From Escherichia phage pO111: DNA of 40,444 nucleotides. Each line of letters starts with the position of its first letter. Positions within the stretch are counted from its first letter, which is position 1. This document shows positions 729 through 40,444 of this stretch, one piece after another. The notes under the pieces are model-generated. The model searched no databases, was not told the origin of the DNA, and was given only the letters and a program-made list of their open reading frames with translations. Location of the stretch: the sequence record OR204652.1. One strand, given 5' to 3'. A program made the translations under genes and the position numbers.

Positions 729-1172
729 TCAATCACTTAGGTAATCCTCAATGACCCTCTTGACCCACGCCACAGAGAGCTTATGGTATCTCGCTATGGA
801 CGTTGCGGTCCAGCCTTTATGGTATCTTCGAATCACTATGGCCTTACGTTCCTCGCTAGGGTCTCTCTTAGTTGCATCACGTTTACCTGTGGCCTTAGTT
901 GCACGACCTTTTGAGATGCAGTCCTCTATGTTCTCCTTCTGAGTCCCTTCCTTAAGGTGCTCAGGGTTAACACATGAAGGATTATCACATAGGTGCATCA
1001 CAACCATTCCGTCAGCTATCGGTCTGCCTAGATGACAACTCAGGGAATACCTGTGGGCCATCCAATGGACTCCGTTCACACGAATGCGACCATAGCCAGT
1101 CTTCGTCTTACATCCCTTAAAGTTCCAGCAACCAGTCTCCTTATCGACAACATACTTCTTCTTGCTTATCAT
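729..1172 (-). CDS. HNH endonuclease with C-terminal helix-turn-helix (putative free-standing homing endonuclease)
   Basis: 147-aa ORF; motif HLCDNPSCVNPEHL (HNH_3-like) plus C-terminal HTH; ATG with AAGGAGGT Shine-Dalgarno; lies between terminase gene 19 and phiOR. Confidence 0.8.
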   Translation of the reverse strand: MISKKKYVVDKETGCWNFKGCKTKTGYGRIRVNGVHWMAHRYSLSCHLGRPIADGMVVMHLCDNPSCVNPEHLKEGTQKENIEDCISKGRATKATGKRDATKRDPSEERKAIVIRRYHKGWTATSIARYHKLSVAWVKRVIEDYLSD

Positions 1173-1209: not shown

Positions 1210-2970
1210 TCACCACTCAATGAAAGACGTACCGTATCCCTCATCGTCCTCATAGTACACATCAACTCCTCCTACAGACATCTCAATGATATGCGTAGCA
1301 GAAACCGTAGGACGCATCATGTGTTCCTCAAGGAAGTCAGCAAGTACTTCACCCTCGACCTTAACGGAATCCAATTGCATGGACTCACGGAGGTACTCAA
1401 CGCCTAACGCAAGGGAATCCAATCGGTCATCGTGTGCCAGAGCGCCTTTCTCACGGGTAATACGAGTCATCTGGTAGAACAGCGAATACTTAACGTCATG
1501 CTTACCGTCTACGTCACGAGCGGACTGGTAGTCGGCCCTAATGACCTCATCACGAATGACAAGGCGGTGAGTCTGCATGACTGGCTCAAGGGTATCACAA
1601 ATGCGCATCTCCTTCATACCACGAGCACGAATCTCTTCCATCGCACAGTTGTGGTGTTTAAGAAGGATAGGACTGAATACCTTACCAAACATACCGTCAC
1701 CGAAGTTACTCTCGTAGACAACCGTCTGGACCCCCCATTGCTTAGCTTTCTTAGCGAGCAACTCAAGGGTCTTATCGGAGTAACCATCACGGAAACCTCC
1801 AGCTTCCATAAGGTAGATGTAACCGTTCAGGGTGTATAGCACAGCGTAACCTGTTTCGTCCTTACCGCGACCACTAGGGTCAATGACCAGAATCTTCTGT
1901 TGGTACTGACCAGAGTTGTTAGAACAATCGTGGTACGTATGAAGGTCATCACCCTTAAGGCCCACGTTAGGAAGGTCCTCAATGATGTTCTGACGGTTCG
2001 GAAGCCACTGGTAATGCATTGGGGCCTTCTCTAAGTCTAAGGCCGCTACGATAGCGTCACGGAGCCTCAGAGGGTACTTCTCGGCATCACTCAGGTTCGG
2101 GTTAAGCATGAACTGTAACGTAAAGCCAGCCTTACCGTATTCCAACTCACGCTCACGGAGGTCGTCTCGGTCGAATCGAACAGGGTCTGTAGGAGTACCA
2201 GCCAGCGCCTCAGGATTCTCCTCGTACTCCGCACGAAGCATTGGAGCAAGACGTTGGGCATAGTAAAGACTCTCTTCACGCGTCCTTGGGTACAAGGCAG
2301 GCCATATGATAGTGGTATACCCACGGTTATCCTCAAGTTCCTTATACAGAGTCATCTCAGTCTGAGGAGTACCAAGGTAGATAACACGAGATGTGGGCAG
2401 CGGTTTAAGAAGCGCAGCGAACTCTTGAACTAGAGTCCATAGCTTCTCACGGGCACCCATGGTCGCACTGTTAGACGGAATCTCAACGTCATCCGCAATG
2501 ATAATATCAGCACGGCTACCAGTTAACTGACCAGTGATACCTACTGATTTCACACTAGGCGAGTGGTCAGGACTAGCAGGACCAACATCGAAACTAATCA
2601 CAGAGTCACGCTGTCCGGGTCTCGGCTTCAACTCACTGAGAAACGGTAGCAGGTCAATGATGTTCTTGATGAATATGGAGTTAGCGTCTGCACGTTCTTT
2701 AGAAGCTGATACGATAAGTATCTTCAACTGAGGGTCCCGCCATAAGGACCACACAACGAACGCACATGTGATGAACGACTTACCGATACCACGGAAAGCC
2801 TGTAAGATGAACTTCTTGTTGTCCCCATTCGCCAGTACCTTAGCCATGTCAATCTGACACTTAGTGGGCACCGGAAGGTTTAACGCCTTCCATAAGACGA
2901 ACAGGAACGCCACGAAGTCTCCTTTCAGTTGCGCCACTACGAGCGCATTACGATTGGATTGAGTAGACAC
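1210..2970 (-). CDS. 19: Terminase large subunit
   Basis: 586 aa, same length and near-identical sequence to recalled T7 gp19; GTG start after AAGGAGGT. Confidence 0.95.
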
Positions 2971-2979
2971 ATTACCTCC

Positions 2980-3429
2980 TTACTTGGTTTCCTGCTTACG
3001 TTGCAGTTCACGAATAGTATCCTGTAACGCACGAATCCACGCATCACCCTTCTGGGTCACTGCGATAATACGTTTAGCATCTCGGTCGTCAAGTTCGGCT
3101 CGACCATCAGGCTCGAATCCACACTTACCATCGGAGGTTCCGGTAGTCTTGATTCTGACGCGCAACCGCTTATTGTCGCTACGCAAATCAGAAATAATCC
3201 TATCAGTGCTCCCTTCCAGCGCGGCAAGGTCTGCTTGATACTTAGCCGATATCTCATTGATTGCTCTTTGAGTGCTCGCCGTAGCCTCAACTCTCTTAAC
3301 GTACTCATTCTGTACCTCCTGTTTCCACTTGGCGTCCATTGAGTCAGCCCCAAGTTGCCATCCCCATCCGAATAGCATCCCAGCGAGAACCCAAGGGACT
3401 GTTCTCTTAACGATTGCAAGTAATACCAT
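2980..3429 (-). CDS. 18.5: Rz-like i-spanin (gp18.5)
   Basis: ORF track 2980..3477 trimmed to the internal ATG (MVLLAIVKRTVPWVLAGMLFG...) that aligns with the T7 gp18.5 N-terminus. Confidence 0.85.
   Translation of the reverse strand: MVLLAIVKRTVPWVLAGMLFGWGWQLGADSMDAKWKQEVQNEYVKRVEATASTQRAINEISAKYQADLAALEGSTDRIISDLRSDNKRLRVRIKTTGTSDGKCGFEPDGRAELDDRDAKRIIAVTQKGDAWIRALQDTIRELQRKQETK
3057..3308 (-). CDS. 18.7: Rz1-like o-spanin lipoprotein (gp18.7), embedded in the +1 frame of Rz
   Basis: MSTLRELRLRRALKEQSMRY...ICVATISGCASES lipobox; 83 aa from the internal ATG of ORF 3057..3419. Confidence 0.85.
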   Translation of the reverse strand: MSTLRELRLRRALKEQSMRYRLSIKQTLPRWKGALIGLFLICVATISGCASESRLPEPPMVSVDSSLMVEPNLTTEMLNVLSQ

Positions 3430-3811
3430 AAGTTTCCTCCAACAATCTCGCGTGAGTTTCCCTAGCCCAAGAAACAACTTCCTCTAGATTAGTGGTAGGC
3501 GCATAAGTTTCCTTACGACCTCCCATGCGAATGTCACCATAGTAGACCATACAGCCTTTCCTCTTTGCGAATCTAGAGTATACACCCTTTGGTAGTTCCC
3601 TACTACTAATCGTGTTAGCCCTGTTAGCACCTCTAGGTACTGCCCTCAGGTTAGATAACGCATTATCCAGTGTGTCACCATTTATATGATCGATGACGTA
3701 CCCTTCTGGGATTGGACCATTGGCCTCTTCCCAAATCAGGCGGTGTACATTGTGTACCTTACCATTTATGGTTACTCGATAGTACCCTCCACTCAGGTAT
3801 TGACCTTCCAT
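3407..3811 (-). CDS. HNH endonuclease with AP2-like DNA-binding tail (putative homing endonuclease)
   Basis: 134-aa ORF; GYVIDHINGDTLDNALSNLRAV HNH motif; ATG with GGAGA Shine-Dalgarno; sits between gene 18 and Rz and overlaps the Rz start by 23 nt. Confidence 0.8.
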   Translation of the reverse strand: MEGQYLSGGYYRVTINGKVHNVHRLIWEEANGPIPEGYVIDHINGDTLDNALSNLRAVPRGANRANTISSRELPKGVYSRFAKRKGCMVYYGDIRMGGRKETYAPTTNLEEVVSWARETHARLLEETYGITCNR

Positions 3812-3873
3812 AATAATCTCTCCTATCTAAATGATATTCATAAGGGCCACTCATTAGAATGACCCTGAGTATA

Positions 3874-4143
3874 TCACTGTAAAGTGTAAATATCGTCATC
3901 CGTAAGACCGTTATCACCGACTTTCTCTTTGTACTCTTCAAGAGCACCAGCAAGTCCACCCAAGATGTGAACATCCGGTTGCAGCTTGCCAATCTGGAAC
4001 TTGTGGCGGTCTAACAGTTTGTTGATGGCGTTGTAGAGTTGTGGAGAACGACGCTCAGGGTCCGAAAGGTCCGCAAGCATACGCTGAGCCATAGCCGTGT
4101 CCAACATCTCTAAGAACGTAATAAGGCTCTTATCTTTTTCCAT
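3874..4143 (-). CDS. 18: Terminase small subunit
   Basis: 89 aa, near-identical to recalled T7 gp18 (MEKDKSLITFLEMLDTAMAQR...). Confidence 0.95.
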   Translation of the reverse strand: MEKDKSLITFLEMLDTAMAQRMLADLSDPERRSPQLYNAINKLLDRHKFQIGKLQPDVHILGGLAGALEEYKEKVGDNGLTDDDIYTLQ

Positions 4144-4146
4144 ATA

Positions 4147-4350
4147 TTACTCCTTATTGGCTTTCTTCCAGTCAATCATCTTATCGACTACCTTGGCACC
4201 AATCTGAACCACTGTATAGGCGATAGCGGCAACGTAGAACCACTCATTAAGACTCAGCCCGAAGAACAGCCTCGCAGCACCATCAGCCACACCTGTACCC
4301 ACAATAGGTGCAGCCTTAACGATTTCATTGTTGAAGTCTAGGGATAGCAT
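4147..4350 (-). CDS. 17.5: Class II holin
   Basis: 67 aa, near-identical to recalled T7 gp17.5. Confidence 0.95.
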   Translation of the reverse strand: MLSLDFNNEIVKAAPIVGTGVADGAARLFFGLSLNEWFYVAAIAYTVVQIGAKVVDKMIDWKKANKE

Positions 4351-6033: not shown

Positions 6034-6056
6034 TCTCCCTATAGTGAGTCGTATTA
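6034..6056 (-). promoter_or_regulatory. T7-type phage RNAP promoter phi17
   Basis: Reverse complement TAATACGACTCACTATAGGGAGA, exact consensus. Confidence 0.9.
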
Positions 6057-15780: not shown

Positions 15781-16371
15781 TTAGCGAGTCAGTAGACCAG
15801 AAGTGAACGCATCACCATCCAGCATGTTATAACCGCCGTAATCCACTTCGTACTCCATACAGAGGCGTCGAGCCTCATCTTCCTCTTCTTGGAGTACACC
15901 CTCTACTTCTGGTGCCCCAAAGAATCGGTTGTTGAACTGACGTGAAGCCTTAGTGACAATCCAGTAGCGGAAGCACTCAGGCATCTCATCGTAGTCTCTG
16001 AGACGAATAATGTTCACAGTAATGCCAGAGTCAAAGCGGTCTGATTGACTCGTTCGGTCATACACATAGCCACCTCGATTAACATAGACTGATTGACCGG
16101 AAGTAGCCATTAGGGACAAATAGTCATCGCTGTACACAATCAGGTTGGAGTAAACATCAGGTAATAGCGTTATGCCTTCCTCAATGTTGAACGTCCAGCC
16201 ACGAGACTGAATCTGTCTGTTAATCTTATTGAGAATGCGCCGAGCGTTCGCTACATCTGCGTTAGCATCACCTTCCAGCGTCGATACCGGAGGTTCACCG
16301 ATAGATGCCAGAATGTCATTCACAGCGGATAACTCAGCGGCAGTCTCAACGTTCATATCGTATGAGCGCAT
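15781..16371 (-). CDS. 11: Tail tubular protein A
   Basis: 196 aa, same length and position as T7 gp11. Confidence 0.93.
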
Positions 16372-18752: not shown

Positions 18753-20360
18753 AATGCCCGGCTGTAGACCTACGGAATCAGCGGCAGCAGCCATAGCCTC
18801 AGGTGAAGCTGTAGCCTGCGCAGCCATACCTTGACCAAGCGCAGCAGCACCACTATCCATACCCATTTGCATAGACTGTTGAGCCATCCTCTGTTGCTTC
18901 TGTTCTTCGGTAAGAAGGATACCAGAAGTGTCAATACCGATAGCGTTAGCAATGCGCAACTTAATCATTGCAAGGTTGATGTCAGGGTCGTCACGCATAG
19001 GAGCAAGAGCAGCCCACGCAGCGACACAACGCTCCAGCTTATCAAGGTCTTGTCCTCGACCGATTGCTTCCAGACCTGTACTAATGGTTGGCTCTACTGC
19101 TTCCTTAGGTAACTCAGGAATCTGTTGCGTGGCTTGTAGCTGCTTCAAGAGCACTCGTACCAGAGGCAATTGTAATTCTTGAGAAAGGATGGAGTAGACA
19201 CCACCTAAAGTATCTTCAAGTTCAGAAGCGACATACCGAATCTCTTCGGCTGTCACACGTTCACCTGTGCGCTGAACCGCAGAGTTCAACATAAAGGCAA
19301 ACGAAAGGCGAGCCTCAATAGCGTCACTGACAGCCTTGGCTACAGTAAAGTCTGCTTGCTTCTCCAGTTGGAGGAACGAGATGTCTTCTGGACGACCAGT
19401 AACGAAGTCACCAGTCTGAGCTTTGGTCAGTCGGCGTGGCTGGGTGATACCAGCAGGATTCACTAAGCCGATAACCTTAGAGCTAATCATGGACATCTTG
19501 ACGATAGCCTCTTGGAGATTCTCAAGGGACCGTAAGTCACCTAAGTATTCCTCAATGTACGAACGACCGTAGGATTCACCGTCAAGACGAACCATTCGAA
19601 TCGGGATGTATGGGCAAGCATCTTTAGGATATGCACCATCGGAGCCTTGTATCTCCATACCTTCAACCTCTTCGTAGCGGAGATATTCGTCTGACTCTTC
19701 GTCCAAGTAGATGTGAGTGTACACATCAATGGTCTCATCAGGTTTCTTCTCACCGCCTTGACCTTCTACAGCCTTACGGATGTCCTCAGGGAGAGCACCA
19801 AAAGCTATCTGGTCACGAGTCACCATTTGCAGAACGTTGCCGAATGCGTCTCGTTGGACCACATAAGAAGACAATCGGTACAGCTTCATGGGATTGTAGT
19901 TTGACCCTTCTGGTTCCGGTAGGTACAGTAGGACGTTACCCGCTACGACTAACTGCTTGAGAGCCTCAAAGAGAGTTACTCGGTAGCTGTTAGACTCAAT
20001 GTAGTTCATGATAATGCGCTCTACCATTGAGAGGCCCTCATCAACCTTAGCGAGTCCATCGGGGTCGCTCAGTAGTTGTTTTGCCTCGAACTCAGAGATG
20101 GTTAAGCGCATCCAAGTCTGCATGGGGAATAACGCCAGCATTAGTTTAGACGCTAGGTTATTCAGGCCACGGGCACCAACGGCTTGCCACGGAGTTGTGT
20201 AGTCTGTAGATGCGTTGTCGGAGTCCTTAGGGAATAAGGAGGGGATGGTATATTGAGCGCAATTCTGAGCGCGTGTCTCATAAGGAGCACGGTCGTTCTT
20301 TAAACGCTCATAGACGGACTTTGCGCCCTCCTCCGCAAGTCCTGTTCGTTTCTCAGCCAT
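18750..20360 (-). CDS. 8: Portal (head-to-tail connector) protein
   Basis: ORF track trimmed to MAEKRTGLAEEG (536 aa as in T7 gp8); its ATG overlaps the upstream HNH stop as TAATG. Confidence 0.93.
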   Translation of the reverse strand: MAEKRTGLAEEGAKSVYERLKNDRAPYETRAQNCAQYTIPSLFPKDSDNASTDYTTPWQAVGARGLNNLASKLMLALFPMQTWMRLTISEFEAKQLLSDPDGLAKVDEGLSMVERIIMNYIESNSYRVTLFEALKQLVVAGNVLLYLPEPEGSNYNPMKLYRLSSYVVQRDAFGNVLQMVTRDQIAFGALPEDIRKAVEGQGGEKKPDETIDVYTHIYLDEESDEYLRYEEVEGMEIQGSDGAYPKDACPYIPIRMVRLDGESYGRSYIEEYLGDLRSLENLQEAIVKMSMISSKVIGLVNPAGITQPRRLTKAQTGDFVTGRPEDISFLQLEKQADFTVAKAVSDAIEARLSFAFMLNSAVQRTGERVTAEEIRYVASELEDTLGGVYSILSQELQLPLVRVLLKQLQATQQIPELPKEAVEPTISTGLEAIGRGQDLDKLERCVAAWAALAPMRDDPDINLAMIKLRIANAIGIDTSGILLTEEQKQQRMAQQSMQMGMDSGAAALGQGMAAQATASPEAMAAAADSVGLQPGI

Positions 20361-20761
20361 TAAATATGTCTCCATGTCTTACCACATCGAGCGTCACTAA
20401 TGGTTCTCCTATGGATGCCATACATTTCTGACAACTCAGTGTTGGTTAAATTTGATGCACGAATCTCACGCACAATGGCCTCAGTGAGCTTGGCACCGTA
20501 ATGCTCTTCACCTCTGGATGCGTTCGCTCTACCTTTAGTTACACAGTCCATACGGTTATCACGCTGAGTGCCAGCTACAAGATGTTCAGGGTTGATACAC
20601 AGAGGATTGTCACAGGTATGCATTATGACCATACCAGTCGGTATCTCACCCTTTGATTTGATGTATGCTACCCTGTGAGCCAGCTGTGTCTTACCTTTGT
20701 AACCAACGAGACCGTACCCTCCTTTAGTCGTACAACCAGTATGAAGGATACAATCTGTCAT
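20360..20761 (-). CDS. HNH endonuclease with C-terminal helix-turn-helix (gene 7.7 position)
   Basis: 133 aa; HTCDNPLCINPEHL motif; same architecture as the ORFs at 729..1172 and 30008..30436. Confidence 0.8.
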   Translation of the reverse strand: MTDCILHTGCTTKGGYGLVGYKGKTQLAHRVAYIKSKGEIPTGMVIMHTCDNPLCINPEHLVAGTQRDNRMDCVTKGRANASRGEEHYGAKLTEAIVREIRASNLTNTELSEMYGIHRRTISDARCGKTWRHI

Positions 20762-23925: not shown

Positions 23926-24526
23926 CTTTCTGTATTCTCCTATTACTAGGAGTGTCGGACTATATCATCAGCCTTTGAGTTGACTGTCTGGCGCTTCGGG
24001 TAACGAGGGAATCTCACCCTCGGCCCTACTCCTTTCGGATAGTCTCTACGCCTTCCACTCTCTAATCCACTTACAAGCGGCAGAGAACGTTACACCAAAC
24101 TTCTCACCTAAGTGTGCTCCTGTACATCCAGTCTCCAACCAGTATTCCTTCGCGGACTCTTTACGGTCAGCGTAGCGTTCCCTGTTTGTCTTGACTGTAT
24201 GCTCAGAACCTTCTAGTAACTGGAGGTGCTCTACGTTACAGCACGCCCTGTTCCTACACTTGTGGTCTACTTCATACCCTTCTGGTATATCTCCGTAGTG
24301 TTCCTTCCAGACTGTCCTGTGATACATCTCTAGGACACCGTTCGTCTTCTTTCGGAAATAACCATCAGTATTAAGTTTGTGTGACGTAGGGATGATACAA
24401 CCACTCGCTGTGGTCGCAAGGATTAACTTCTTGCCTCTCATATATCCTCCCTATGGCTTGGCTCGGTATTGCCCTAGAAGGGTTTCACCGAGTTCACCAG
24501 ATTTAATGTGCACAATGAGATAGTTT
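23926..24526 (-). mobile_element. Group I self-splicing intron in DNA polymerase gene 5, carrying an HNH homing-endonuclease ORF
   Basis: 601 nt between the gp5 exons; exon 1 ends in U; GUGCAC near the intron 5' end can pair with exon end GUGCAU (U-G wobble); R-like AGAGACUA and S-like GAUAUAGUCC elements; CUCCUA-GUAA-UAGGAG hairpin; intron ends in G. Confidence 0.8.
24046..24441 (-). CDS. Intron-encoded HNH homing endonuclease
   Basis: 131 aa ORF inside the intron; YEVDHKCRNRACCNVEHL HNH-type motif; ATG with GGGAGGA Shine-Dalgarno; stop codon overlaps the R-like element. Confidence 0.82.
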   Translation of the reverse strand: MRGKKLILATTASGCIIPTSHKLNTDGYFRKKTNGVLEMYHRTVWKEHYGDIPEGYEVDHKCRNRACCNVEHLQLLEGSEHTVKTNRERYADRKESAKEYWLETGCTGAHLGEKFGVTFSAACKWIREWKA

Positions 24527-26485
24527 ATGCACCCATGCCATGTACGCAAAGTCCCCATCCCAGCCATGCTTCAAGCCTTTCTCTACGAGCATCTCTTCGG
24601 TCTTGATAATCCACAGTTTGCAGATGAGAGCACCAGCAGATTGTAATAGGGTATTCAAGGCAGCGTGAGGACTACGGACGTGTACCTTACGACCATCCAG
24701 ACCTTTAATCCAGCGGCGTTTCCACTTGACTCGCTGTTCGCCAGCTACCCACTGAGAGGACTCAACAAGTGTCTGTTGGATAGACTCACGGAGTGCTGCA
24801 ATCGCTGGGGTGTTCTCAAGGAATTTCTTCTTGAGTTCCTTACCGCGCTCTTTACCAGCACCAACAATCTGTCCAATCTTCTCATCACCAGCACCATAGA
24901 GGAACCCATAGATAAACGTCTTAGCGTTATCACGGGTAGGCAATTCGGCAGCTATCTGGTTCTTAGTGTGGATGTCGCCATTGAGAATCTCGTGAGCGTA
25001 CTCACCGTTGTCAAAGCGAGCCATGAAGTGGGCCAAGCATCGCAACTCCAGACCGGAGGCGTCTATACCAGCCTGAACCCAAGGCTTACCTGTAAGTCCA
25101 TCTAGGTGATGTTCAGCGCCAAAAGCAGCGCGGCACTGCTCACCATAAGGAGAACGGACACCGGGTATCTGTGCGAGGTTAGGGAAAGCGTGAGTAGCGC
25201 GCCCAGTAACAGCGCCGTTGGGATTAACAGAACCATGAATTTTACCATCCTCAGCAACGTAACGAAGCCACGCCTTGTCTCCCTCAGCTGACTGTCCGAT
25301 TCTCTTCTGAATCATCAAGTATTCTTTAATGAGGTCGATTGCAGCTTGCTTCTCAGGGTCATCTACACGTACTCCTTCGAGTACCTCATCGTCCACCACA
25401 GGCGCACCCTTATCGGTGTACTTCGTGGGGACCCACCCAGCCTCTTGAAGTTTCTTCTGAATGTGGTCACGGGACGAAGGGTTAAACACTACGTGCTCTA
25501 CCGGAGTATATGGGGCACCAGCAACGTACTCGCGGGTATCCAGTTCGCAAGGCTCACGGCCTTCTCGTTGTGCCTTGTTCTTAGGCTTCTTAAAGATACC
25601 ACCAACTTTAGGTGTCTTAATGCGAGGGTATTTAGGCAGTGGTTTACCTGTCCGAGGATGGCAGAACATCTCAGTGCCACCTTTAGGCTGATACCACGAG
25701 CCGAACGTTTCGGTCAGCTTACGCAGCAACTCTGAGCGGCGAGCAGCCAACTCTACGTACAACTCCTCGATTGCTTTCGTGTCAAACGGGAATCCATTAC
25801 GCTCTTGCTTAGCGAGTAGCCATGCAGCGCGATGTTCAACATCAACGGCCTCAAGGGATTCTGACCAGAACGTAGTGTAGCCTACGTCCGTAAAGTCAAT
25901 CTCAGGAGGGAAGTAATGTTTATCAGAGAGTAGCTTCTCAAGGAGAGCCTTAGTGACCACAACGTCCTGAACGTTATAGGCCATCATCTCTTCGTTGAAG
26001 TTCCACCACTCCATTCCGTCAACGTATTCTTCACCTTGCTCTTCAAGCATACGCTTAAAGTCATCCTTGTATTCACCCTTCATCTCACCTAAGCGATAGC
26101 CCCACGCCTCCAAAGCGTGAGACCCAAAGCGTTTACCGGGCAACTTACCGGAACGCAGAAGACCCATATCGGTGTCTTTAAGGTTAGAGTGAATCAATCG
26201 TGACAGCACAAGGGTGTCGATACAGTTCTCACGGGGAAGGTGGAACTCACGGTTCAATTGTAGCTTTGCCAGTTTGGTCAATGCGGGAACGTCATACTTG
26301 TGACCGTTGTGGAACACGATAAGACCGCCTCGTGCAACCTCGGCTTCCAGCGCATCCAGATACGCACCGAAGTCACTCGGACGGTAGCTTACGTACTCAG
26401 CGGTGGAGTAGTCATAGATAACCCCGCAGTGGAACTTAGTGACGCTCTCTAAGAGGGCGTTAGCTTCGATGTCAGAAACGATCAT
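24527..26485 (-). CDS. 5: DNA polymerase gene 5, exon 1 (653 codons)
   Basis: Near-identical to recalled T7 gp5 residues 1-653; the unspliced ORF runs 7 extra codons (KLSHCAH*) into the intron. Confidence 0.9.
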
Positions 26486-29587: not shown

Positions 29588-30036
29588 TATTTCTTCTCCT
29601 TCTTAATAATCATTTTGTCCCAAGGAATCTCCTTACTAGGTTCTTTAAGCCATTCCGCAGGTATCAACTTGTCTGCGAACTTAATGCTATGTTTTTCTGC
29701 CCACTCACCGTAGCTGGTGGGAGACCCTTTGTATAACTTGGTGCGACTTGAAGAGAACACGATGCGTATATCGAGGGATGGGAACTGTTCGCGAATAAGT
29801 AAATGTTTCTTACGGTCTTCCGCTTCAAATAGTCCCTTGAACTCTACTATAATACCGTTTGGTAAAAGCGCATCTGGTGTGTATTTATGATTACTCGCTG
29901 GGATTACGTAGGGGATTGAGAAAGACTCATACTTAGCCTTGACCCCCATGCTCTCCAAGCGAGCCATATTCTTCTCTTCAAGTCCACTTCGGTAGTTTCC
30001 TACACGTTTAATTCCTCTTGCTGCGTAACCTGCCAT
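29587..30036 (-). CDS. 3: Endonuclease I (Holliday junction resolvase)
   Basis: 149 aa, matches recalled T7 gp3. Confidence 0.93.
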   Translation of the reverse strand: MAGYAARGIKRVGNYRSGLEEKNMARLESMGVKAKYESFSIPYVIPASNHKYTPDALLPNGIIVEFKGLFEAEDRKKHLLIREQFPSLDIRIVFSSSRTKLYKGSPTSYGEWAEKHSIKFADKLIPAEWLKEPSKEIPWDKMIIKKEKK

Positions 30037-30436
30037 AAGTCCTCCTGTTTCGTATCATACTGATAGTCGCAGGAGAAACCCCAAAGTCATCAGCCAATTC
30101 GTAGCCTTTCTTTGTGGAAGACATTATGGTTAGTACATCATCATCACTAAGTTTATGTCCTTTACGTCCCCTCCCCTTGGAGGCCATATCTGCTAGGTTC
30201 TCAGCTTGAGTCCCTAGAGATAAGTGTTCAGGGTTGCAGCACTTACGGTTATCACAAGAATGCATTACAACATCGTTAGGTGCTGCCCCAGCCATGACCC
30301 TGTGAATGTAAACGGGGCGACCAGTTTCTGGGTTGCGAATCTGACCGTACCCATTTGTTTTCACAGAGCCTTGCCACTCCCAGCATCCAGAAGACGTAAC
30401 CTCAATTCGCTTGAGGATTTTCTCCTGCAAGCCCAT
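30008..30436 (-). CDS. HNH endonuclease with C-terminal helix-turn-helix (gene 2.8 position)
   Basis: 142 aa; HSCDNRKCCNPEHL motif; overlaps the gene 3 start by 29 nt. Confidence 0.8.
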   Translation of the reverse strand: MGLQEKILKRIEVTSSGCWEWQGSVKTNGYGQIRNPETGRPVYIHRVMAGAAPNDVVMHSCDNRKCCNPEHLSLGTQAENLADMASKGRGRKGHKLSDDDVLTIMSSTKKGYELADDFGVSPATISMIRNRRTYGRLRSKRN

Positions 30437-32497: not shown

Positions 32498-32995
32498 TTA
32501 TTGTAGCTCAGCTAGTAGTTTGTCGCGGGTCGCTACAGCCTCGTTAAGTGACTTGTGATATGAGACATATCGTCTGCCGAACTTCCTAACGGAGACGGTG
32601 TATAGGTTTCTATCATGTCTCTTATTGATGTGCTTAAGCCCCAGCTTGTTGGTGCAGAATGCTCCTTTGTTCTGATTGTTCTCAGCGCTTGTGACCACTC
32701 TGAGATTCTCTATGAGGTTATTCTGCTTATTTCTATCGATATGGTCTATCTGTAAACCGTCTGGTATAGGGCCGTTAGCAAGTTCCCACACTACTCTGTG
32801 AACCATTAAGTAGTGCGCCTTTCCTTCCACCCTGACACATAGAGTCCAATACCCAGTCTTCTTTAGATAGCCAACGGGCTTCCCATTAATACGCGAGAGG
32901 CCACTAGGAGACTCCCTGTCAATCTTAAATCTTTTCGCTACGATTTCCCTCAACTCCACGGAAGCAGGTGAAGGAAGGATGTCTGAGACTTCCAC
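32498..32995 (-). CDS. HNH endonuclease (free-standing, putative homing endonuclease) at the gene 1.4 position
   Basis: 165 aa; LQIDHIDRNKQNNLIENLRVVTSAENNQNKG HNH motif; GTG start with GGAGG Shine-Dalgarno; overlaps the last 71 nt of the ligase gene. Confidence 0.8.
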   Translation of the reverse strand: MEVSDILPSPASVELREIVAKRFKIDRESPSGLSRINGKPVGYLKKTGYWTLCVRVEGKAHYLMVHRVVWELANGPIPDGLQIDHIDRNKQNNLIENLRVVTSAENNQNKGAFCTNKLGLKHINKRHDRNLYTVSVRKFGRRYVSYHKSLNEAVATRDKLLAELQ

Positions 32996-34606: not shown

Positions 34607-37258
34607 TTACGCAAACGCGAAGTCTGAATTAAGGATGTCTTGGAGATTCAAGTTACCCTTAGCCGGAAGTGCTGGCATTTTATCCAATTGAGACTCATGT
34701 AACTGGTCAGCGAACTGGTCGTAGAAGTCAGCCAGTACATCACAAGATTCATAGGTGTCAACCATAGTTTCGCGCACAGCTTTGAACAGGTTGGCAGCGT
34801 CAGCCGGAATGGTCCCGAAGGAGTCATGAATCAGTGCAAACGATTCGATTCCGTACTTCTCATGCGCCCACACTACAGTCTTACGCAGGTGGCTACCGTC
34901 TTGGCTGTGTACAAAGTTAGGAGCGATACCGGACTCCTGTTTGTGTGCATCAATCTCGCTATCCTTGTTTGTGTTAATGGTAGGCTGTAGACGGAACTGA
35001 CCGAGGAAAATCAGGTTCAAGCGAGTCTGAATAGGCTTCTTGTATTCCTGCCACACAGGGAAGCCGTCAGGAGTCACCCAATGCACAGCGCAACGCTTGC
35101 GAAGAATCTCTCCGGTCTTCTTATCTTTGACCTCAGCAGCCAGCAGCTTAGCAGCAGACTTGAGCCAGTTCATAGCCTCTACAGCAGCCACTACGGTAAC
35201 GCTCACTGACTCCCAGATCAGCTTAGCCATATACCCAGCAGCCTGATTAGGTTGGGTGAACATCAGACCTTTGCCTGAATCAATAGCTGGCTGTATGGTG
35301 TCCTCAAGGACTTGCTGGCGGAAGCCGAACTCTTTGGACCCGTAAGCCAGAGTCATGACTGAACGCTTAGTCACGCTACGAGTTACACCGTAAGCCAGCC
35401 ATTGACCAGCCAGTGCCTTAGTACCCAGCTTGACTTTCTCAGAGATTTCACCAGTGTTCTCATCAGTCACGGTAACTACTTCGTTATCGGTCCCGTTGAT
35501 TACATCCGATTGCAGAATCTCGTTGACTTTCTTGGCAACAATCCCGTAGATGTCCTGAACGGTTTCGCTAGGCAGCAGGTTAACAGCACGACCACCCACC
35601 TCATCGCGGAGCATTGCGGAGAAGTGCTGGATACCGGAGCAAGACCCATCGAACGCCAGTGGCAGCGAGCAGTTGTAGCTCAAGCCGTGGTGCTGTACCC
35701 CAGCGTACTCAAAGCAGAACGCGAGGAAACAGAACGGAGAATCTTGCTCAGCCCACCAAGTGTTTTCCAGAGGAGACTTAGCGCAAGCCATGATGTTATC
35801 GTGGTTATCCTCAATGAACTTGATGCGCTCAGGGAACGGAACCTTATCGACACCAGCGCAGTTAGCCCCGTGAATTTTCAGCCAGTAGAATCCTTCCTTA
35901 CCGATTGGTTTACCTTTAGCCAGCGTCAGCAGTCCCTTGGTCATGTCGTTACCTTGCGGGTTGAACATTGACACAGCGTAAACGCGACCACGCCAGTCCA
36001 TGTTGTAAGGGAACCAGATGGCCTTATGGTTAGCGAACTTATTGGCTTGCTCAAGCATGAACTCAAGGCTGATACGGCGAGACTTACGTGCCTTGTCCTT
36101 GCGGTACACAGCGGCAGCTGCACGTTTCCAAGCGGTCAGTGCCTCAAGATTCGTGTCGATGTCTTCCGGTTTCATCGGGAGTTCTTCACGCTCAATAGAC
36201 GGGATGTCTTCAACTGGACAATGCTTCCACTTGGTGATTACGTTGGCGACCGCTAGGACTTTCTTGTTGATTTTCCATGCGGTGTTTTGCGCAATGTTAA
36301 TCGCTTTGTACACCTCAGGCATGTAGACATCTTCGTAGCGCATCAGTGCTTTCTTGCTGTGAGTGCGTACCAGCGCCAGAGGACGGCGACCGTTAGCCCA
36401 ATAGCCACCACCAGTAATACCAGTCCACGGCTTAGGAGGAACTACGCAAGGCTGGAACATTGGGGAAATACCAGCTAGTGCTCCAGCGCGAGTGGCGATG
36501 GCCTCAGCGTATTCAGGCGCGAGTTCGATAGTCTCAGAGTCTTGCCCCACTACGCCAGCGTTTTGACGATGTAAGCTAACCATTCCGGTTGACTCAATGA
36601 GCATCTCAATGCAGCGCACCCCAACGTGAATTGAGTCTTCCTTATGCCACGAAGACCACGCCTCGCCGCCCATTAGACCCTTAGAGAGCATGTCAGCTTC
36701 GACAACCTGCATGAATGCCTTCTTGTAGACGTGCCCTACGCGCTTGTTGAGTTGTTCCTCAACGTGTTTCTTGAAGTGCTTGGCCTCAAGGTCACGGATG
36801 CGACCAAAGCGCGCCTCATCCTCAATGGCTCGACCGATTGCGCTTGCTACAGCCTGAACGGTTGTATTGTCTGCACTGGTTAGACAAGCCAGAGTGGTTT
36901 TGATGGTGATGTACGCTACGGCTTCCGGCTTGATTTCTTGCAGGAACTGGAAGGCTGTCGGGCGTTTGCCGCGCTTAGCTTTCACTTTCTCAAACCAGTC
37001 GTTGATGCGTGCAATCATCTTAGGGAGCAGGGTAGTAATGAGAGGCTTAGCGGCCGCATTGTCTGCAACATCACCGGCCTTGAGTTGACGCTCAAACATC
37101 TTGCGGAAGCGTGCTTCACCCATTTCGTAAGACTCATGCTCAAGGGCCAACTGCTCGCGAGCTAGACGCTCACCATAGTGATCAGCCAGAGTGTTGAACG
37201 GGATAGCGGCTAGTTCGATGTCAGAGAAATCGTTCTTAGCGATGTTAATCGTGCTCAT
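34607..37258 (-). CDS. 1: DNA-directed RNA polymerase (single-subunit, T7-type)
   Basis: 883 aa, near-identical to recalled T7 RNAP; consistent with the T7-consensus promoters across the window. Confidence 0.97.
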   Translation of the reverse strand: MSTINIAKNDFSDIELAAIPFNTLADHYGERLAREQLALEHESYEMGEARFRKMFERQLKAGDVADNAAAKPLITTLLPKMIARINDWFEKVKAKRGKRPTAFQFLQEIKPEAVAYITIKTTLACLTSADNTTVQAVASAIGRAIEDEARFGRIRDLEAKHFKKHVEEQLNKRVGHVYKKAFMQVVEADMLSKGLMGGEAWSSWHKEDSIHVGVRCIEMLIESTGMVSLHRQNAGVVGQDSETIELAPEYAEAIATRAGALAGISPMFQPCVVPPKPWTGITGGGYWANGRRPLALVRTHSKKALMRYEDVYMPEVYKAINIAQNTAWKINKKVLAVANVITKWKHCPVEDIPSIEREELPMKPEDIDTNLEALTAWKRAAAAVYRKDKARKSRRISLEFMLEQANKFANHKAIWFPYNMDWRGRVYAVSMFNPQGNDMTKGLLTLAKGKPIGKEGFYWLKIHGANCAGVDKVPFPERIKFIEDNHDNIMACAKSPLENTWWAEQDSPFCFLAFCFEYAGVQHHGLSYNCSLPLAFDGSCSGIQHFSAMLRDEVGGRAVNLLPSETVQDIYGIVAKKVNEILQSDVINGTDNEVVTVTDENTGEISEKVKLGTKALAGQWLAYGVTRSVTKRSVMTLAYGSKEFGFRQQVLEDTIQPAIDSGKGLMFTQPNQAAGYMAKLIWESVSVTVVAAVEAMNWLKSAAKLLAAEVKDKKTGEILRKRCAVHWVTPDGFPVWQEYKKPIQTRLNLIFLGQFRLQPTINTNKDSEIDAHKQESGIAPNFVHSQDGSHLRKTVVWAHEKYGIESFALIHDSFGTIPADAANLFKAVRETMVDTYESCDVLADFYDQFADQLHESQLDKMPALPAKGNLNLQDILNSDFAFA

Positions 37259-37439
37259 TTTGTACCTCTTTCGGTCAGGAATCGTATCTATTCAGGCCAC
37301 CCGTAGATGACCTGTAAGATAAGACTATCAGCCCATTAGCATTGCGTCAAGTTTCTTATCAATGTTGAGCTGAAGACCATTAGCGATAGCCATCCGGTCA
37401 GCTTGGAACCAGTGCGCTGCGATTCGTTCCTCAAGCACC

Positions 37440-40271: not shown

Positions 40272-40444
40272 AGGGACAAGGAGAGACACTCAAGGTAACA
40301 CCCAAAGGGACAACCCAAAGGTAACACTCAAAGACTCAACCCAACCCTTAGGGAACCCTCAAGGTCAACCGAAGGTTGACTTTAGGTGATTGGCTGGGCT
40401 TTAGGTACCCCTATGGGGGAACTTTGGGCGCTTACACTGTGAGA
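40272..40444. repeat. Direct terminal repeat (genome left end in T7 orientation)
   Basis: Identical to 1..173. Confidence 0.9.

What the first reader, a model, noticed from the sequence alone, without database searches (positions are those of the whole stretch)
2980..3429. Embedded Rz/Rz1 spanin gene pair
The Rz1 lipoprotein ORF (3057..3308, lipobox ISGC) lies entirely within the Rz gene in the +1 frame, a fully nested gene arrangement. It is canonical for T7 but worth recording because the upstream HNH insertion overlaps the Rz start.
Basis: partly seen in the sequence, partly recalled or inferred. Interest (0 to 1): 0.2.

Follow-up and report, generated by a model that had tools for sequence, protein, structure and literature searches.

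The report
T7-type nested spanin genes, HNH-capped
This is the ordinary phage T7 pair of nested lysis genes (Rz with Rz1 inside it). The one twist is that a selfish HNH endonuclease gene, already seen at this spot in related phages, now supplies the start of Rz.

Summary
The window is a complete T7-like genome in reverse orientation, so everything lies on the minus strand.

- **Rz (gene 18.5):** 2980-3429, 149 aa, 85% identical to T7 gp18.5.
- **Rz1 (gene 18.7):** 3057-3308, 83 aa, 95% identical to T7 gp18.7. It is fully nested in the +1 frame, with its own AGGAGGT ribosome-binding site, lipobox ISGC and a 35-aa proline-rich mature part.
- **Conservation:** the nested ORF and lipobox are present in 10 of 10 phages from six genera compared.
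- **HNH gene:** 3407-3811 overlaps Rz by 23 nt. It belongs to a 431-nt cassette (3399-3829) that replaces 75 nt of T7 sequence, including the native Rz ribosome-binding site, ATG and first 25 coding nt.
- **New Rz start:** the Rz ribosome-binding site, ATG and first ~10 codons now come from the cassette. The KR-anchored membrane segment is kept.
- **Precedent:** the same HNH, at the same site with the same 20-23-nt overlap, is annotated in Przondovirus, Kayfunavirus and Teetrevirus, and in an unclassified Enterobacter phage. In Helsettvirus (Yersinia phage fPS-53) the copy at that site is truncated and no longer overlaps Rz. None of 186 curated T7-group records has it, but three T7-like contigs assembled from public sequencing runs do.

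Verdict: ordinary and already known. Low interest.

The parts
2980..3429 (-). Rz / gene 18.5, the inner-membrane spanin subunit (i-spanin), 149 aa including stop
   Evidence: ORF and translation. PF03245 at 29.3 bits, above its cutoff of 25.4. PHROG 1327 at 2e-62. 85% identity to T7 gp18.5. The AlphaFold2 single-sequence model has helices at 13-23, 33-95 and 115-148 (low confidence).
3057..3308 (-). Rz1 / gene 18.7, the outer-membrane lipoprotein spanin subunit (o-spanin), 83 aa, nested in the +1 frame of Rz
   Evidence: PF17531 at 7.5e-40. PHROG 4306. 95% identity to T7 gp18.7. The nested ORF is conserved in 10 of 10 phages.
3162..3173 (-). Lipobox ISGC (Rz1 residues 46-49). Cys49 is the predicted lipidated residue, residue +2 is Ala, and the mature peptide is 35 aa
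   Evidence: Regular-expression match to [LVI][ASTVI][GAS]C. The consensus is as given in PMC6139136.
3314..3320 (-). Rz1 ribosome-binding site AGGAGGT, 5 nt before the ATG at 3308
   Evidence: Upstream sequence. The site is conserved in the T7, JeanTinguely and cp30 alignment.
3346..3402 (-). Rz N-terminal membrane segment (about residues 10-28, TVPWVLAGMLFGWGWQLGA), preceded by K8 R9
   Evidence: Kyte-Doolittle hydropathy. Model helix 13-23.
3436..3440 (-). Rz ribosome-binding site GGAGG, 6 nt before the ATG at 3429. It lies inside the HNH coding sequence
   Evidence: The motif GGAGGAAAC(A/T)TATGG is shared exactly by the window, IME321 and fPS-53. YZ1, EclP26 and Sekstaphage-1 carry close variants of it.
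3407..3811 (-). Free-standing HNH homing-endonuclease gene, 134 aa, overlapping Rz by 23 nt
   Evidence: PF13392 HNH_3 at 3.3e-19. PHROG 99. A profile of the family hits PDB 1u3e, I-HmuI, at 8e-8. The structure model has pLDDT 88 and its top Foldseek hit is I-HmuI.
3399..3829 (-). The HNH cassette: 431 nt that replace T7 nt 36867-36941 (75 nt: the 3' part of the 18/18.5 spacer, the native 18.5 ribosome-binding site, ATG and first 25 coding nt)
   Evidence: BLAST breakpoints against T7. Alignments.
3830..3878 (-). Stem / internal loop / stem hairpin homologous to the R18.5 RNase III site of T3 and T7. It is retained, and the cassette begins directly 3' of it
   Evidence: R18.5 stem-loop as annotated in T3. 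Fold energy -21.6 kcal/mol, z = -4.5, same shape as in T7, T3 and K11, with the upper stem differing from T7 at several positions but still fully paired.
3874..4143 (-). Gene 18, terminase small subunit (neighbour)
   Evidence: PF11123.
4147..4350 (-). Gene 17.5, class II holin (lysis partner)
   Evidence: PF10746 at 3.5e-35.
1210..2970 (-). Gene 19, terminase large subunit (neighbour). The Rz stop codon TAA overlaps its ribosome-binding site TAAGGAGG

Best explanation
The locus is the T7-type embedded two-component spanin, the last-step lysis device of the phage.

**How the spanin works (inferred from family knowledge).** Rz (gp18.5) is anchored in the inner membrane by an N-terminal membrane segment, and its largely helical domain reaches into the periplasm. 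Rz1 (gp18.7) is translated independently from its own ribosome-binding site and ATG in the +1 frame inside Rz. It is exported, lipid-modified at Cys49 by the lipoprotein pathway, and sorted to the outer membrane because residue +2 is Ala rather than Asp. The two C-terminal ends bind across the periplasm. Once the holin (gp17.5) and the amidase have removed the cell wall, the complex fuses the inner and outer membranes and releases the phage.

**What the sequence shows directly.** These points are shown: the ORFs, frames, ribosome-binding sites, lipobox, hydrophobic segments and homology. The cellular steps above are not tested.

**What differs from T7.** A 431-nt free-standing HNH homing-endonuclease cassette sits directly 3' of the R18.5 RNase III hairpin. 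It has replaced the native Rz translation-initiation region. The new Rz ribosome-binding site and ATG lie inside the last 34 nt of the HNH ORF, and the first ~10 Rz codons are cassette-derived. A Lys-Arg pair and the membrane segment are preserved, so Rz should insert normally.

**Expression and spread of the HNH gene (inferred).** The HNH gene has no promoter of its own. It is presumably expressed late from the phi17-type transcript. It most likely spreads by cutting HNH-less alleles in co-infecting relatives and being copied in during repair.
For: **Spanin pair**
- ORFs, frames and ribosome-binding sites.
- Pfam and PHROG hits for both proteins.
- 85% and 95% identity to T7 gp18.5 and gp18.7.
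- Nested +1 ORF with lipobox in 10 of 10 phages from six genera.
- The Rz/Rz1 overlap diverges 3-5% from relatives, against 9-14% for the Rz-only 5' part.
- Hydropathy and helix pattern fit an i-spanin.
- The holin gene lies next door.

**HNH gene**
- HNH_3 domain. The family profile and the structure model both match I-HmuI best.
- Presence/absence polymorphism at one site: 0 of 186 T7-group records at 90% identity or more carry it, and 42 records in the search with the Przondovirus IME321 locus, which matched 460 records (379 of them Klebsiella phages). It is also present in Kayfunavirus, Teetrevirus, Helsettvirus and an Enterobacter phage.
- The ribosome-binding site, ATG and 20-23-nt overlap are conserved in the intact HNH-bearing alleles.
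- Three T7-like contigs from public sequencing runs carry the same gene order. All 9-10 HNH nucleotide differences from two of them are synonymous. HNH divergence from L061 is 2.5%, against 6-11% in its flanks.
- No T7-type promoter inside the cassette.
Against: - No signal-peptide or lipoprotein predictor could be run.
- With the annotated 83-aa start, the lipobox Cys is at position 49, which is unusually far from the N-terminus.
- The Rz structure model is low confidence (pLDDT 64, single sequence).
- The Foldseek match of the HNH model to I-HmuI is weak by E-value (0.028).
- No cleavage site, homing event or spanin activity has been tested for this phage.
- Against the third T7-like relative (L060) the HNH gene is about as diverged as its flanks. 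In this lineage it may therefore be inherited vertically and no longer be actively mobile.
Confidence: 0.9

Rival explanations
1. The HNH insertion has damaged Rz. The real Rz start was lost, translation begins at a downstream codon or not at all, the protein lacks a proper membrane anchor, and the spanin is crippled.
For: The native ribosome-binding site, ATG and first 8 codons of T7 18.5 are absent. The N-terminal residues differ completely from T7.
Against: A strong GGAGG sits 6 nt before an in-frame ATG at 3429. The same or a closely similar signal is present in all six HNH-bearing alleles compared and in three T7-like relatives. K8, R9 and the hydrophobic segment are retained. The Rz ORF is intact in every intact HNH-bearing genome, including 42 records matching the Przondovirus locus, which argues that the allele is viable.
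Confidence: 0.04
2. Rz1 actually starts at the internal Met18 (MRYRLSIKQ...), giving a 66-aa precursor with a conventional-length signal peptide. The 83-aa annotation is then too long.
For: With Met18 as the start, the lipobox Cys falls at position 32, inside the usual 15-35 range for lipoproteins (that range is from my own knowledge). The Pfam O_Spanin_T7 model covers only residues 25-83.
Against: The upstream ATG has a near-perfect AGGAGGT site at 5-nt spacing, whereas Met18 has only AAGAG (alignment). Met18 is absent in K11, IME321, YZ1, EclP26 and fPS-53, which keep the long basic N-region. PHROG 4306 aligns over residues 1-83.
Confidence: 0.12
3. The HNH protein is not a selfish homing element but a packaging accessory working with the flanking terminase subunits, as HNH proteins do in HK97-like cos phages.
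For: The gene lies between the terminase small (gene 18) and large (gene 19) subunit genes.
Against: It is absent from T7 and from all 186 close T7-group records, and from most of the records matching the Przondovirus locus, all of which package DNA without it. A truncated copy exists in fPS-53. The same genome carries at least five other HNH_3 genes in unrelated places, one of them inside a group I intron. The best structural and sequence relative is the homing endonuclease I-HmuI.
Confidence: 0.04
4. The nested +1 ORF is a chance open frame and not a gene.
For: About 5% of synonymous recodings of Rz give a +1 ATG-ORF of at least 83 codons.
Against: Pfam E 7.5e-40. Lipobox, hydrophobic core and ribosome-binding site are conserved across six genera. 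The T7 RefSeq note states that gp18.7 interacts with gp18.5.
Confidence: 0.01

Closest known systems
Phage T7 genes 18.5 / 18.7 (Rz-like i-spanin and Rz1-like o-spanin; NC_001604 37... 36917-37348 and 37032-37283)
   Same: Same gene order (17.5 holin, 18, 18.5 with 18.7 inside, 19). Same +1 nesting. 85% and 95% protein identity. Identical lipobox context LICVATISGC. Same Rz1 ribosome-binding site.
   Different: The Rz N-terminus is MVLLAIVKRTV instead of MLEFLRKLI, and 2 aa longer. The Rz C-terminus is 6 aa longer, as in T3 and JeanTinguely (QETK versus QEIK). 75 nt of the 18/18.5 spacer and the 18.5 5' end are replaced by a 431-nt HNH cassette.
HNH/Rz overlap alleles of other Studiervirinae, e.g. 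Klebsiella phage vB_KpnP_IME321 (NC_048014: HNH 36392-36796, Rz 36774-37235), Escherichia phages YZ1 and Sekstaphage-1, Enterobacter phage vB_EclP_26
   Same: Homologous HNH (64-79% aa identity) at the same site directly 3' of the R18.5 hairpin. HNH and Rz overlap by 20-23 nt. The Rz ribosome-binding site and ATG are embedded in the HNH codons for L-E-E-T-Y-G. The HNH stop TAA sits in the Rz K-R/K-S codons.
   Different: The phage backbone is a different genus: here Teseptimavirus, about 93% nt identity to T7. The window's HNH is at most 79% identical to any record in the curated phage collection or in IMG/VR.
Lambda Rz / Rz1 (prototype embedded spanin)
   Same: Embedded +1 architecture, a type II inner-membrane subunit plus an outer-membrane lipoprotein subunit, and a Pfam PF03245 hit for Rz (definitions in PMC6139136).
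   Different: Only distant sequence similarity (PF03245 E 1e-6). T7-type Rz1 belongs to its own Pfam family, PF17531. The T7-type pair is not part of a contiguous holin-endolysin-spanin cassette, because the amidase gene 3.5 lies elsewhere.
I-HmuI (PDB 1u3e), the HNH homing endonuclease of Bacillus phage SPO1
   Same: HNH_3-type beta-beta-alpha-metal nuclease core. Profile E 8e-8, Foldseek probability 1.0, 33% identity over 63 columns.
   Different: I-HmuI is encoded inside an intron and carries different C-terminal DNA-binding modules. This HNH gene is free-standing and has a three-strand-plus-helix C-terminal domain of uncertain class. AP2-type hits reach only E about 1.

Membership tests
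Two-component spanin, i-spanin subunit (Rz-like, PF03245 / PHROG 1327) | Sequence membership in the Rz family | tested here: met
   PF03245 at 29.3 bits, above its gathering cutoff of 25.4. PHROG 1327 at 2.1e-62. 85% identity to T7 gp18.5.
Two-component spanin, i-spanin subunit (Rz-like, PF03245 / PHROG 1327) | Single N-terminal membrane segment with N-in / C-out (type II) topology | tested here: met
   A hydrophobic stretch within residues 1-28 is the only strongly hydrophobic part of the protein, and it is preceded by K8 R9. Model helix 13-23. This rests on hydropathy only. No topology predictor was available.
Two-component spanin, i-spanin subunit (Rz-like, PF03245 / PHROG 1327) | Mostly alpha-helical periplasmic domain: two helical segments joined by a linker | tested here: inconclusive
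   The AlphaFold2 single-sequence model gives helices 33-95 and 115-148 with a disordered linker 96-114 containing Cys103. Mean pLDDT is only 64.
Two-component spanin, o-spanin subunit (T7 type, PF17531) | Sequence membership | tested here: met
   PF17531 at 135 bits, E 7.5e-40. PHROG 4306. 95% identity to T7 gp18.7.
Two-component spanin, o-spanin subunit (T7 type, PF17531) | Lipoprotein signal: basic N-region, hydrophobic core, lipobox [LVI][ASTVI][GAS]C | tested here: met
   ISGC at residues 46-49 after ALIGLFLICVAT, with ten Arg/Lys residues upstream. The consensus is from PMC6139136. SignalP and LipoP were not available.
Two-component spanin, o-spanin subunit (T7 type, PF17531) | Outer-membrane sorting (no Asp at +2) and a short proline-rich mature domain | tested here: met
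   The mature peptide is CASESRLPEPPMVSVDSSLMVEPNLTTEMLNVLSQ, 35 aa, with Ala at +2 and 4 Pro. The sorting rule is from general knowledge of the Lol pathway.
Embedded spanin gene architecture | The o-spanin gene lies wholly inside the i-spanin gene in the +1 frame, with its own start signals | tested here: met
   3057-3308 lies within 2980-3429. The offset is 121 nt, i.e. +1. AGGAGGT sits 5 nt upstream of the ATG.
Embedded spanin gene architecture | Outer-membrane disruption activity and Rz-Rz1 complex formation | not testable with these tools
   This needs lysis or complementation assays. The only support is the RefSeq note that T7 gp18.7 interacts with gp18.5.
Free-standing HNH homing endonuclease (HNH_3, I-HmuI-like) | HNH / beta-beta-alpha-metal nuclease domain with conserved catalytic residues | tested here: met
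   PF13392 at 3.3e-19. D41, H42, N50 and N54 are invariant in 19 homologues. Profile hit to 1u3e at 8e-8. Model pLDDT 88 with I-HmuI as the top structural hit.
Free-standing HNH homing endonuclease (HNH_3, I-HmuI-like) | Sporadic presence or absence at one fixed site among otherwise collinear relatives | tested here: met
   0 of 186 close T7-group records. 42 of the 460 records matched by the Przondovirus IME321 locus. The same site is occupied in five other lineages, four of them classified genera. Clean junctions.
Free-standing HNH homing endonuclease (HNH_3, I-HmuI-like) | Cleaves the empty allele and is copied in, with co-conversion of flanking sequence | not testable with these tools
   Hints only. 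Identity to T7 falls to 70-88% within about 50-100 nt of the cassette and rises to 95-100% beyond that. However, part of this divergence is specific to this genome even when compared with HNH-bearing relatives.
Free-standing HNH homing endonuclease (HNH_3, I-HmuI-like) | C-terminal AP2-type DNA-binding domain (recalled from memory for HNH-AP2 endonucleases) | tested here: inconclusive
   No Pfam AP2 hit even at E 10. The model has a three-strand sheet plus helix (residues 77-128). AP2 structures match only at E about 1, probability about 0.2.

The most novel reading that the evidence does not exclude
The HNH element may be specialised for the Rz translation-initiation region.

- Its target would be the block AACGGGAGGCATTATGCT, which is identical in the HNH-less alleles of T7, T3 and K11 and is missing from every HNH-bearing allele.
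- The element would protect its own genome by carrying a recoded replacement start for Rz inside its own 3' end.
- As a result, the i-spanin's N-terminal tail and its translation, possibly coupled to HNH translation, would be dictated by a mobile element.

One supporting hint comes from the overlap. HNH Gly129 stays synonymous (GGT/GGC/GGA) while Rz residue 2 drifts V/A/E, so the HNH frame is the constrained one there.
Probability: 0.3. Interest if true: 0.3.

Novelty: already known. Interest (0 to 1): 0.12.

Why it matters
The practical value is for annotation.

- The Rz/Rz1 pair should be called on the minus strand.
- Rz should start at 3429, inside the HNH gene. It should not be called as a truncated or frameshifted gene.
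- The nested Rz1 ORF, which gene callers often miss, should be kept.

Biologically it is a neat but unsurprising example of a selfish endonuclease gene settling next to a lysis gene without breaking it, by bringing a substitute start signal. It also adds the T7 genus itself to the genera known to carry this particular element. No open question becomes newly testable.

Tried and rejected
1. ORF length as evidence for Rz1: too weak on its own (5% of synonymous recodings reach it), so I relied on homology and conservation.
2. A co-conversion signature around the cassette: a divergence gradient against T7 exists. But the 5' Rz segment is equally diverged from the HNH-bearing T7-like relatives, so it is not clean evidence. 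It partly reflects lineage-specific changes (L22W, H25Q, S28A).
3. A hairpin hiding the Rz ribosome-binding site in T7 that the cassette would remove: the folds were not consistent between T7, JeanTinguely and K11. Dropped.
4. An AP2 domain in the HNH C-terminus: not detected by Pfam and only weakly by fold search.
5. An own promoter in the cassette: no T7-type promoter was found, and sigma-70-like matches were not above shuffled expectation.
6. Literature on this specific HNH/Rz junction: three full-text searches found nothing specific. Only general spanin definitions were obtained.
7. PDB sequence search with Rz: no meaningful hit.
8. IMG/VR scan for closer HNH relatives: nothing above 79% identity. 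The large protein database did give 98-100% matches in assemblies of public sequencing runs.

Full report
**What the window is.** The 40,444-nt window is a complete T7-like genome in reverse-complement orientation. Bases 1-25,000 (minus strand) align over 88-92% of their length at about 93% identity to phages 13a and T7, and the alignment runs to the right genome end. A whole-genome BLAST against T7 shows collinearity and terminal repeats at 1-173 and 40272-40444.

**Checking the observation.** Reading the sequence and the ORF list gives the following:
- Gene 19 (terminase large subunit): 1210-2970.
- Rz (gene 18.5): 2980-3429, ATG to TAA, 149 aa.
- Rz1 (gene 18.7): 3057-3308, ATG to TGA, 83 aa.
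- HNH ORF: 3407-3811, 134 aa.
- Gene 18: 3874-4143.
- Holin gene 17.5: 4147-4350.

Rz1 starts 121 nt after Rz, so it is in the +1 frame and entirely inside Rz. The HNH stop lies 23 nt inside Rz. The lipobox ISGC is at Rz1 residues 46-49, preceded by ALIGLFLICVAT and a very basic N-region. The mature peptide is 35 aa with Ala at +2 and four prolines.

**Is it more than chance?** Length alone is weak evidence. A +1 ATG-ORF of at least 83 codons appears in 5% of synonymous recodings of Rz and in 1.7% of codon shuffles. Homology is decisive:
- Rz1 matches Pfam O_Spanin_T7 at E 7.5e-40, and Rz matches Phage_lysis above its gathering cutoff.
- PHROGs names both proteins Rz-like spanins, at 2e-62 and 7e-40.
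- Identity to T7 gp18.5 is 85% and to gp18.7 is 95%.
- In ten phages from six Studiervirinae genera, the +1 frame inside Rz is always open from an ATG and always carries a lipobox (ISGC, VSGC, VSAC or IGGC).
- The doubly coding stretch diverges 3-5% from relatives, against 9-14% for the Rz-only 5' part.

**Anatomy of the proteins.**
- Rz has its only strongly hydrophobic stretch at the N-terminus, with K8 R9 before TVPWVLAGMLFGWGWQLGA.
- A low-confidence single-sequence AlphaFold2 model shows helices 13-23, 33-95 and 115-148. A disordered linker between the last two holds the single Cys103. This is the usual i-spanin layout.
- Rz1 has a near-perfect ribosome-binding site, AGGAGGT, 5 nt before its ATG.
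- The internal Met18 has only AAGAG upstream and is not conserved outside the T7/T3 group. The 83-aa start is therefore the better call, although it puts the lipobox Cys unusually far from the N-terminus.

**The HNH element.**
- Against T7, window 3399-3829 (431 nt) replaces T7 nt 36867-36941 (75 nt).
- The left junction lies directly after the lower stem of a stem / internal loop / stem hairpin at 3830-3878. This hairpin is homologous to the annotated R18.5 RNase III site of T3. It folds as in T7, T3 and K11, although the upper stem differs from T7 at several positions.
- The right junction lies in Rz codons 8-11. T7 reads ATGCTAGAATTTTTACGTAAGCTAATCCCTTGG (MLEFLRKLIPW). The window reads ATGGTATTACTTGCAATCGTTAAGAGAACAGTCCCTTGG (MVLLAIVKRTVPW).
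- So the native ribosome-binding site, ATG and first codons of Rz are gone. A new GGAGG, 6 nt before a new ATG, lies inside the HNH codons for L-E-E-T-Y-G.
- The cleaner pair IME321 (with HNH) versus K11 (without) shows the same breakpoints.
- There is no T7-type promoter in the cassette. The nearest upstream one is at 6034-6056, in the phi17 position. HNH, Rz and Rz1 are therefore presumably made from the late transcript.

**What the HNH gene is.**
- It has a Pfam HNH_3 domain at 3.3e-19, with invariant D41, H42, N50 and N54 in 19 homologues.
- The family profile hits the homing endonuclease I-HmuI (PDB 1u3e) at 8e-8.
- A pLDDT-88 model has I-HmuI as its best structural match, followed by I-PpoI.
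- The C-terminal three-strand-plus-helix domain could not be assigned. AP2 matches are weak.

**Distribution of the HNH gene.**
- In the curated phage collection, 62 records hold a 60-80% identical protein. In all six records whose annotation I fetched, and in cp30, the gene lies between gene 18 and Rz.
- These records cover Przondovirus (Klebsiella phages), Kayfunavirus (YZ1), Teetrevirus (Sekstaphage-1), an unclassified Enterobacter phage (vB_EclP_26), and a truncated copy in Helsettvirus fPS-53.
- In the intact copies the HNH gene overlaps Rz by 20-23 nt, and the start signal is the same or a close variant.
- Only 42 of the 460 records matched by the Przondovirus IME321 locus have it. None of 186 T7-group records at 90% identity or more has it.
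- IMG/VR holds nothing closer than 79%.
- The large protein database has a 98% match and exact matches. Their contigs, from three public sequencing runs, are T7-like and carry the identical gene order 18 / HNH / Rz (149 aa) / 19.
- Against two of these contigs, all 9-10 nucleotide differences in the HNH gene are synonymous. Against L061, HNH divergence is 2.5%, compared with 6-11% in its flanks. The gene is therefore under purifying selection and somewhat younger than its surroundings.
- Against the third contig, the HNH gene is as diverged as its flanks, so vertical descent within a T7-like sub-lineage is also likely.

**Interpretation.**
- The pair is the canonical T7 embedded spanin and most likely works as in T7 and lambda. 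An inner-membrane Rz and an outer-membrane lipoprotein Rz1 bridge the periplasm and fuse the two membranes after holin and amidase action. Definitions are from PMC6139136. The mechanism itself is inferred and was not tested here.
- The HNH gene is a free-standing homing-endonuclease gene. It has settled next to Rz by bringing a substitute start signal and N-terminal tail for it.
- This arrangement is already annotated in other genera, so it is not new in kind. Its presence in a T7-genus backbone is new only relative to curated phage collections.

**Rivals considered.** The alternatives were a broken Rz, a chance ORF, a packaging-accessory HNH, and a Met18 start for Rz1. Each is discussed under rival explanations with its evidence. 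None is favoured.

**Verdict.** The feature is ordinary and already known, and interest is low. Its main use is correct annotation of the Rz start and of the nested Rz1 gene.

Noticed in passing
window 23936-24536 (-), with ORF 24046-24441 (-): The DNA polymerase gene is split by a ~600-nt insertion between T7 nt 16311 and 16312. The insertion matches the Rfam group I intron model over its full length (38.4 bits, E 3.4e-8, below the gathering score of 50). It contains a 131-aa HNH_3 ORF.
   Followed up: partly
window 729-1172 (-): A 147-aa HNH_3 + HTH_23 endonuclease-like ORF lies between gene 19 and the phiOR-like promoter (655-677), in a segment that does not align to T7. The T7-like relative L060 has a similar gene after its gene 19.
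   Followed up: partly
window 20360-20761, 30008-30436, 32498-32806 (all -): Three more HNH_3 ORFs sit in segments that do not align to T7: at the gene 7.7 position, at the gene 2.8 position, and after the ligase gene. Most of the genome's differences from T7 are HNH genes.
   Followed up: partly
window 4362 to about 5190 (-): The C-terminal half of the tail-fibre gene 17 product does not align to T7 at the DNA level. This is probably a host-range difference.
   Followed up: no
window 3346-3398 (-): The membrane segment of Rz carries three changes (L22W, H25Q, S28A) that are absent from T7 and also from the three HNH-bearing T7-like relatives. This segment is 9-14% diverged from all comparators.
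   Followed up: partly
window 3425 (-): In the HNH/Rz overlap, the third base of HNH Gly129 varies (GGT/GGC/GGA) among T7-like relatives. The change is silent in HNH but alters Rz residue 2 to V, A or E, so the HNH frame is the constrained one there.
   Followed up: yes
L001 / L009 / L010 (T7, K11, T3), spacer between genes 18 and 18.5: HNH-less alleles of distant genera share two identical non-coding blocks, TCCTACGTGAAATCTGA and AACGGGAGGCATTATGCT. HNH-bearing alleles lack both. The blocks could be the endonuclease target or a regulatory element. Neither possibility was tested.
   Followed up: no
L005 (Yersinia phage fPS-53) 801-1222: The HNH gene at the same site is interrupted. The annotated ORF is only 255 nt and the protein match comes in two pieces. 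This is a decaying copy of the element.
   Followed up: partly
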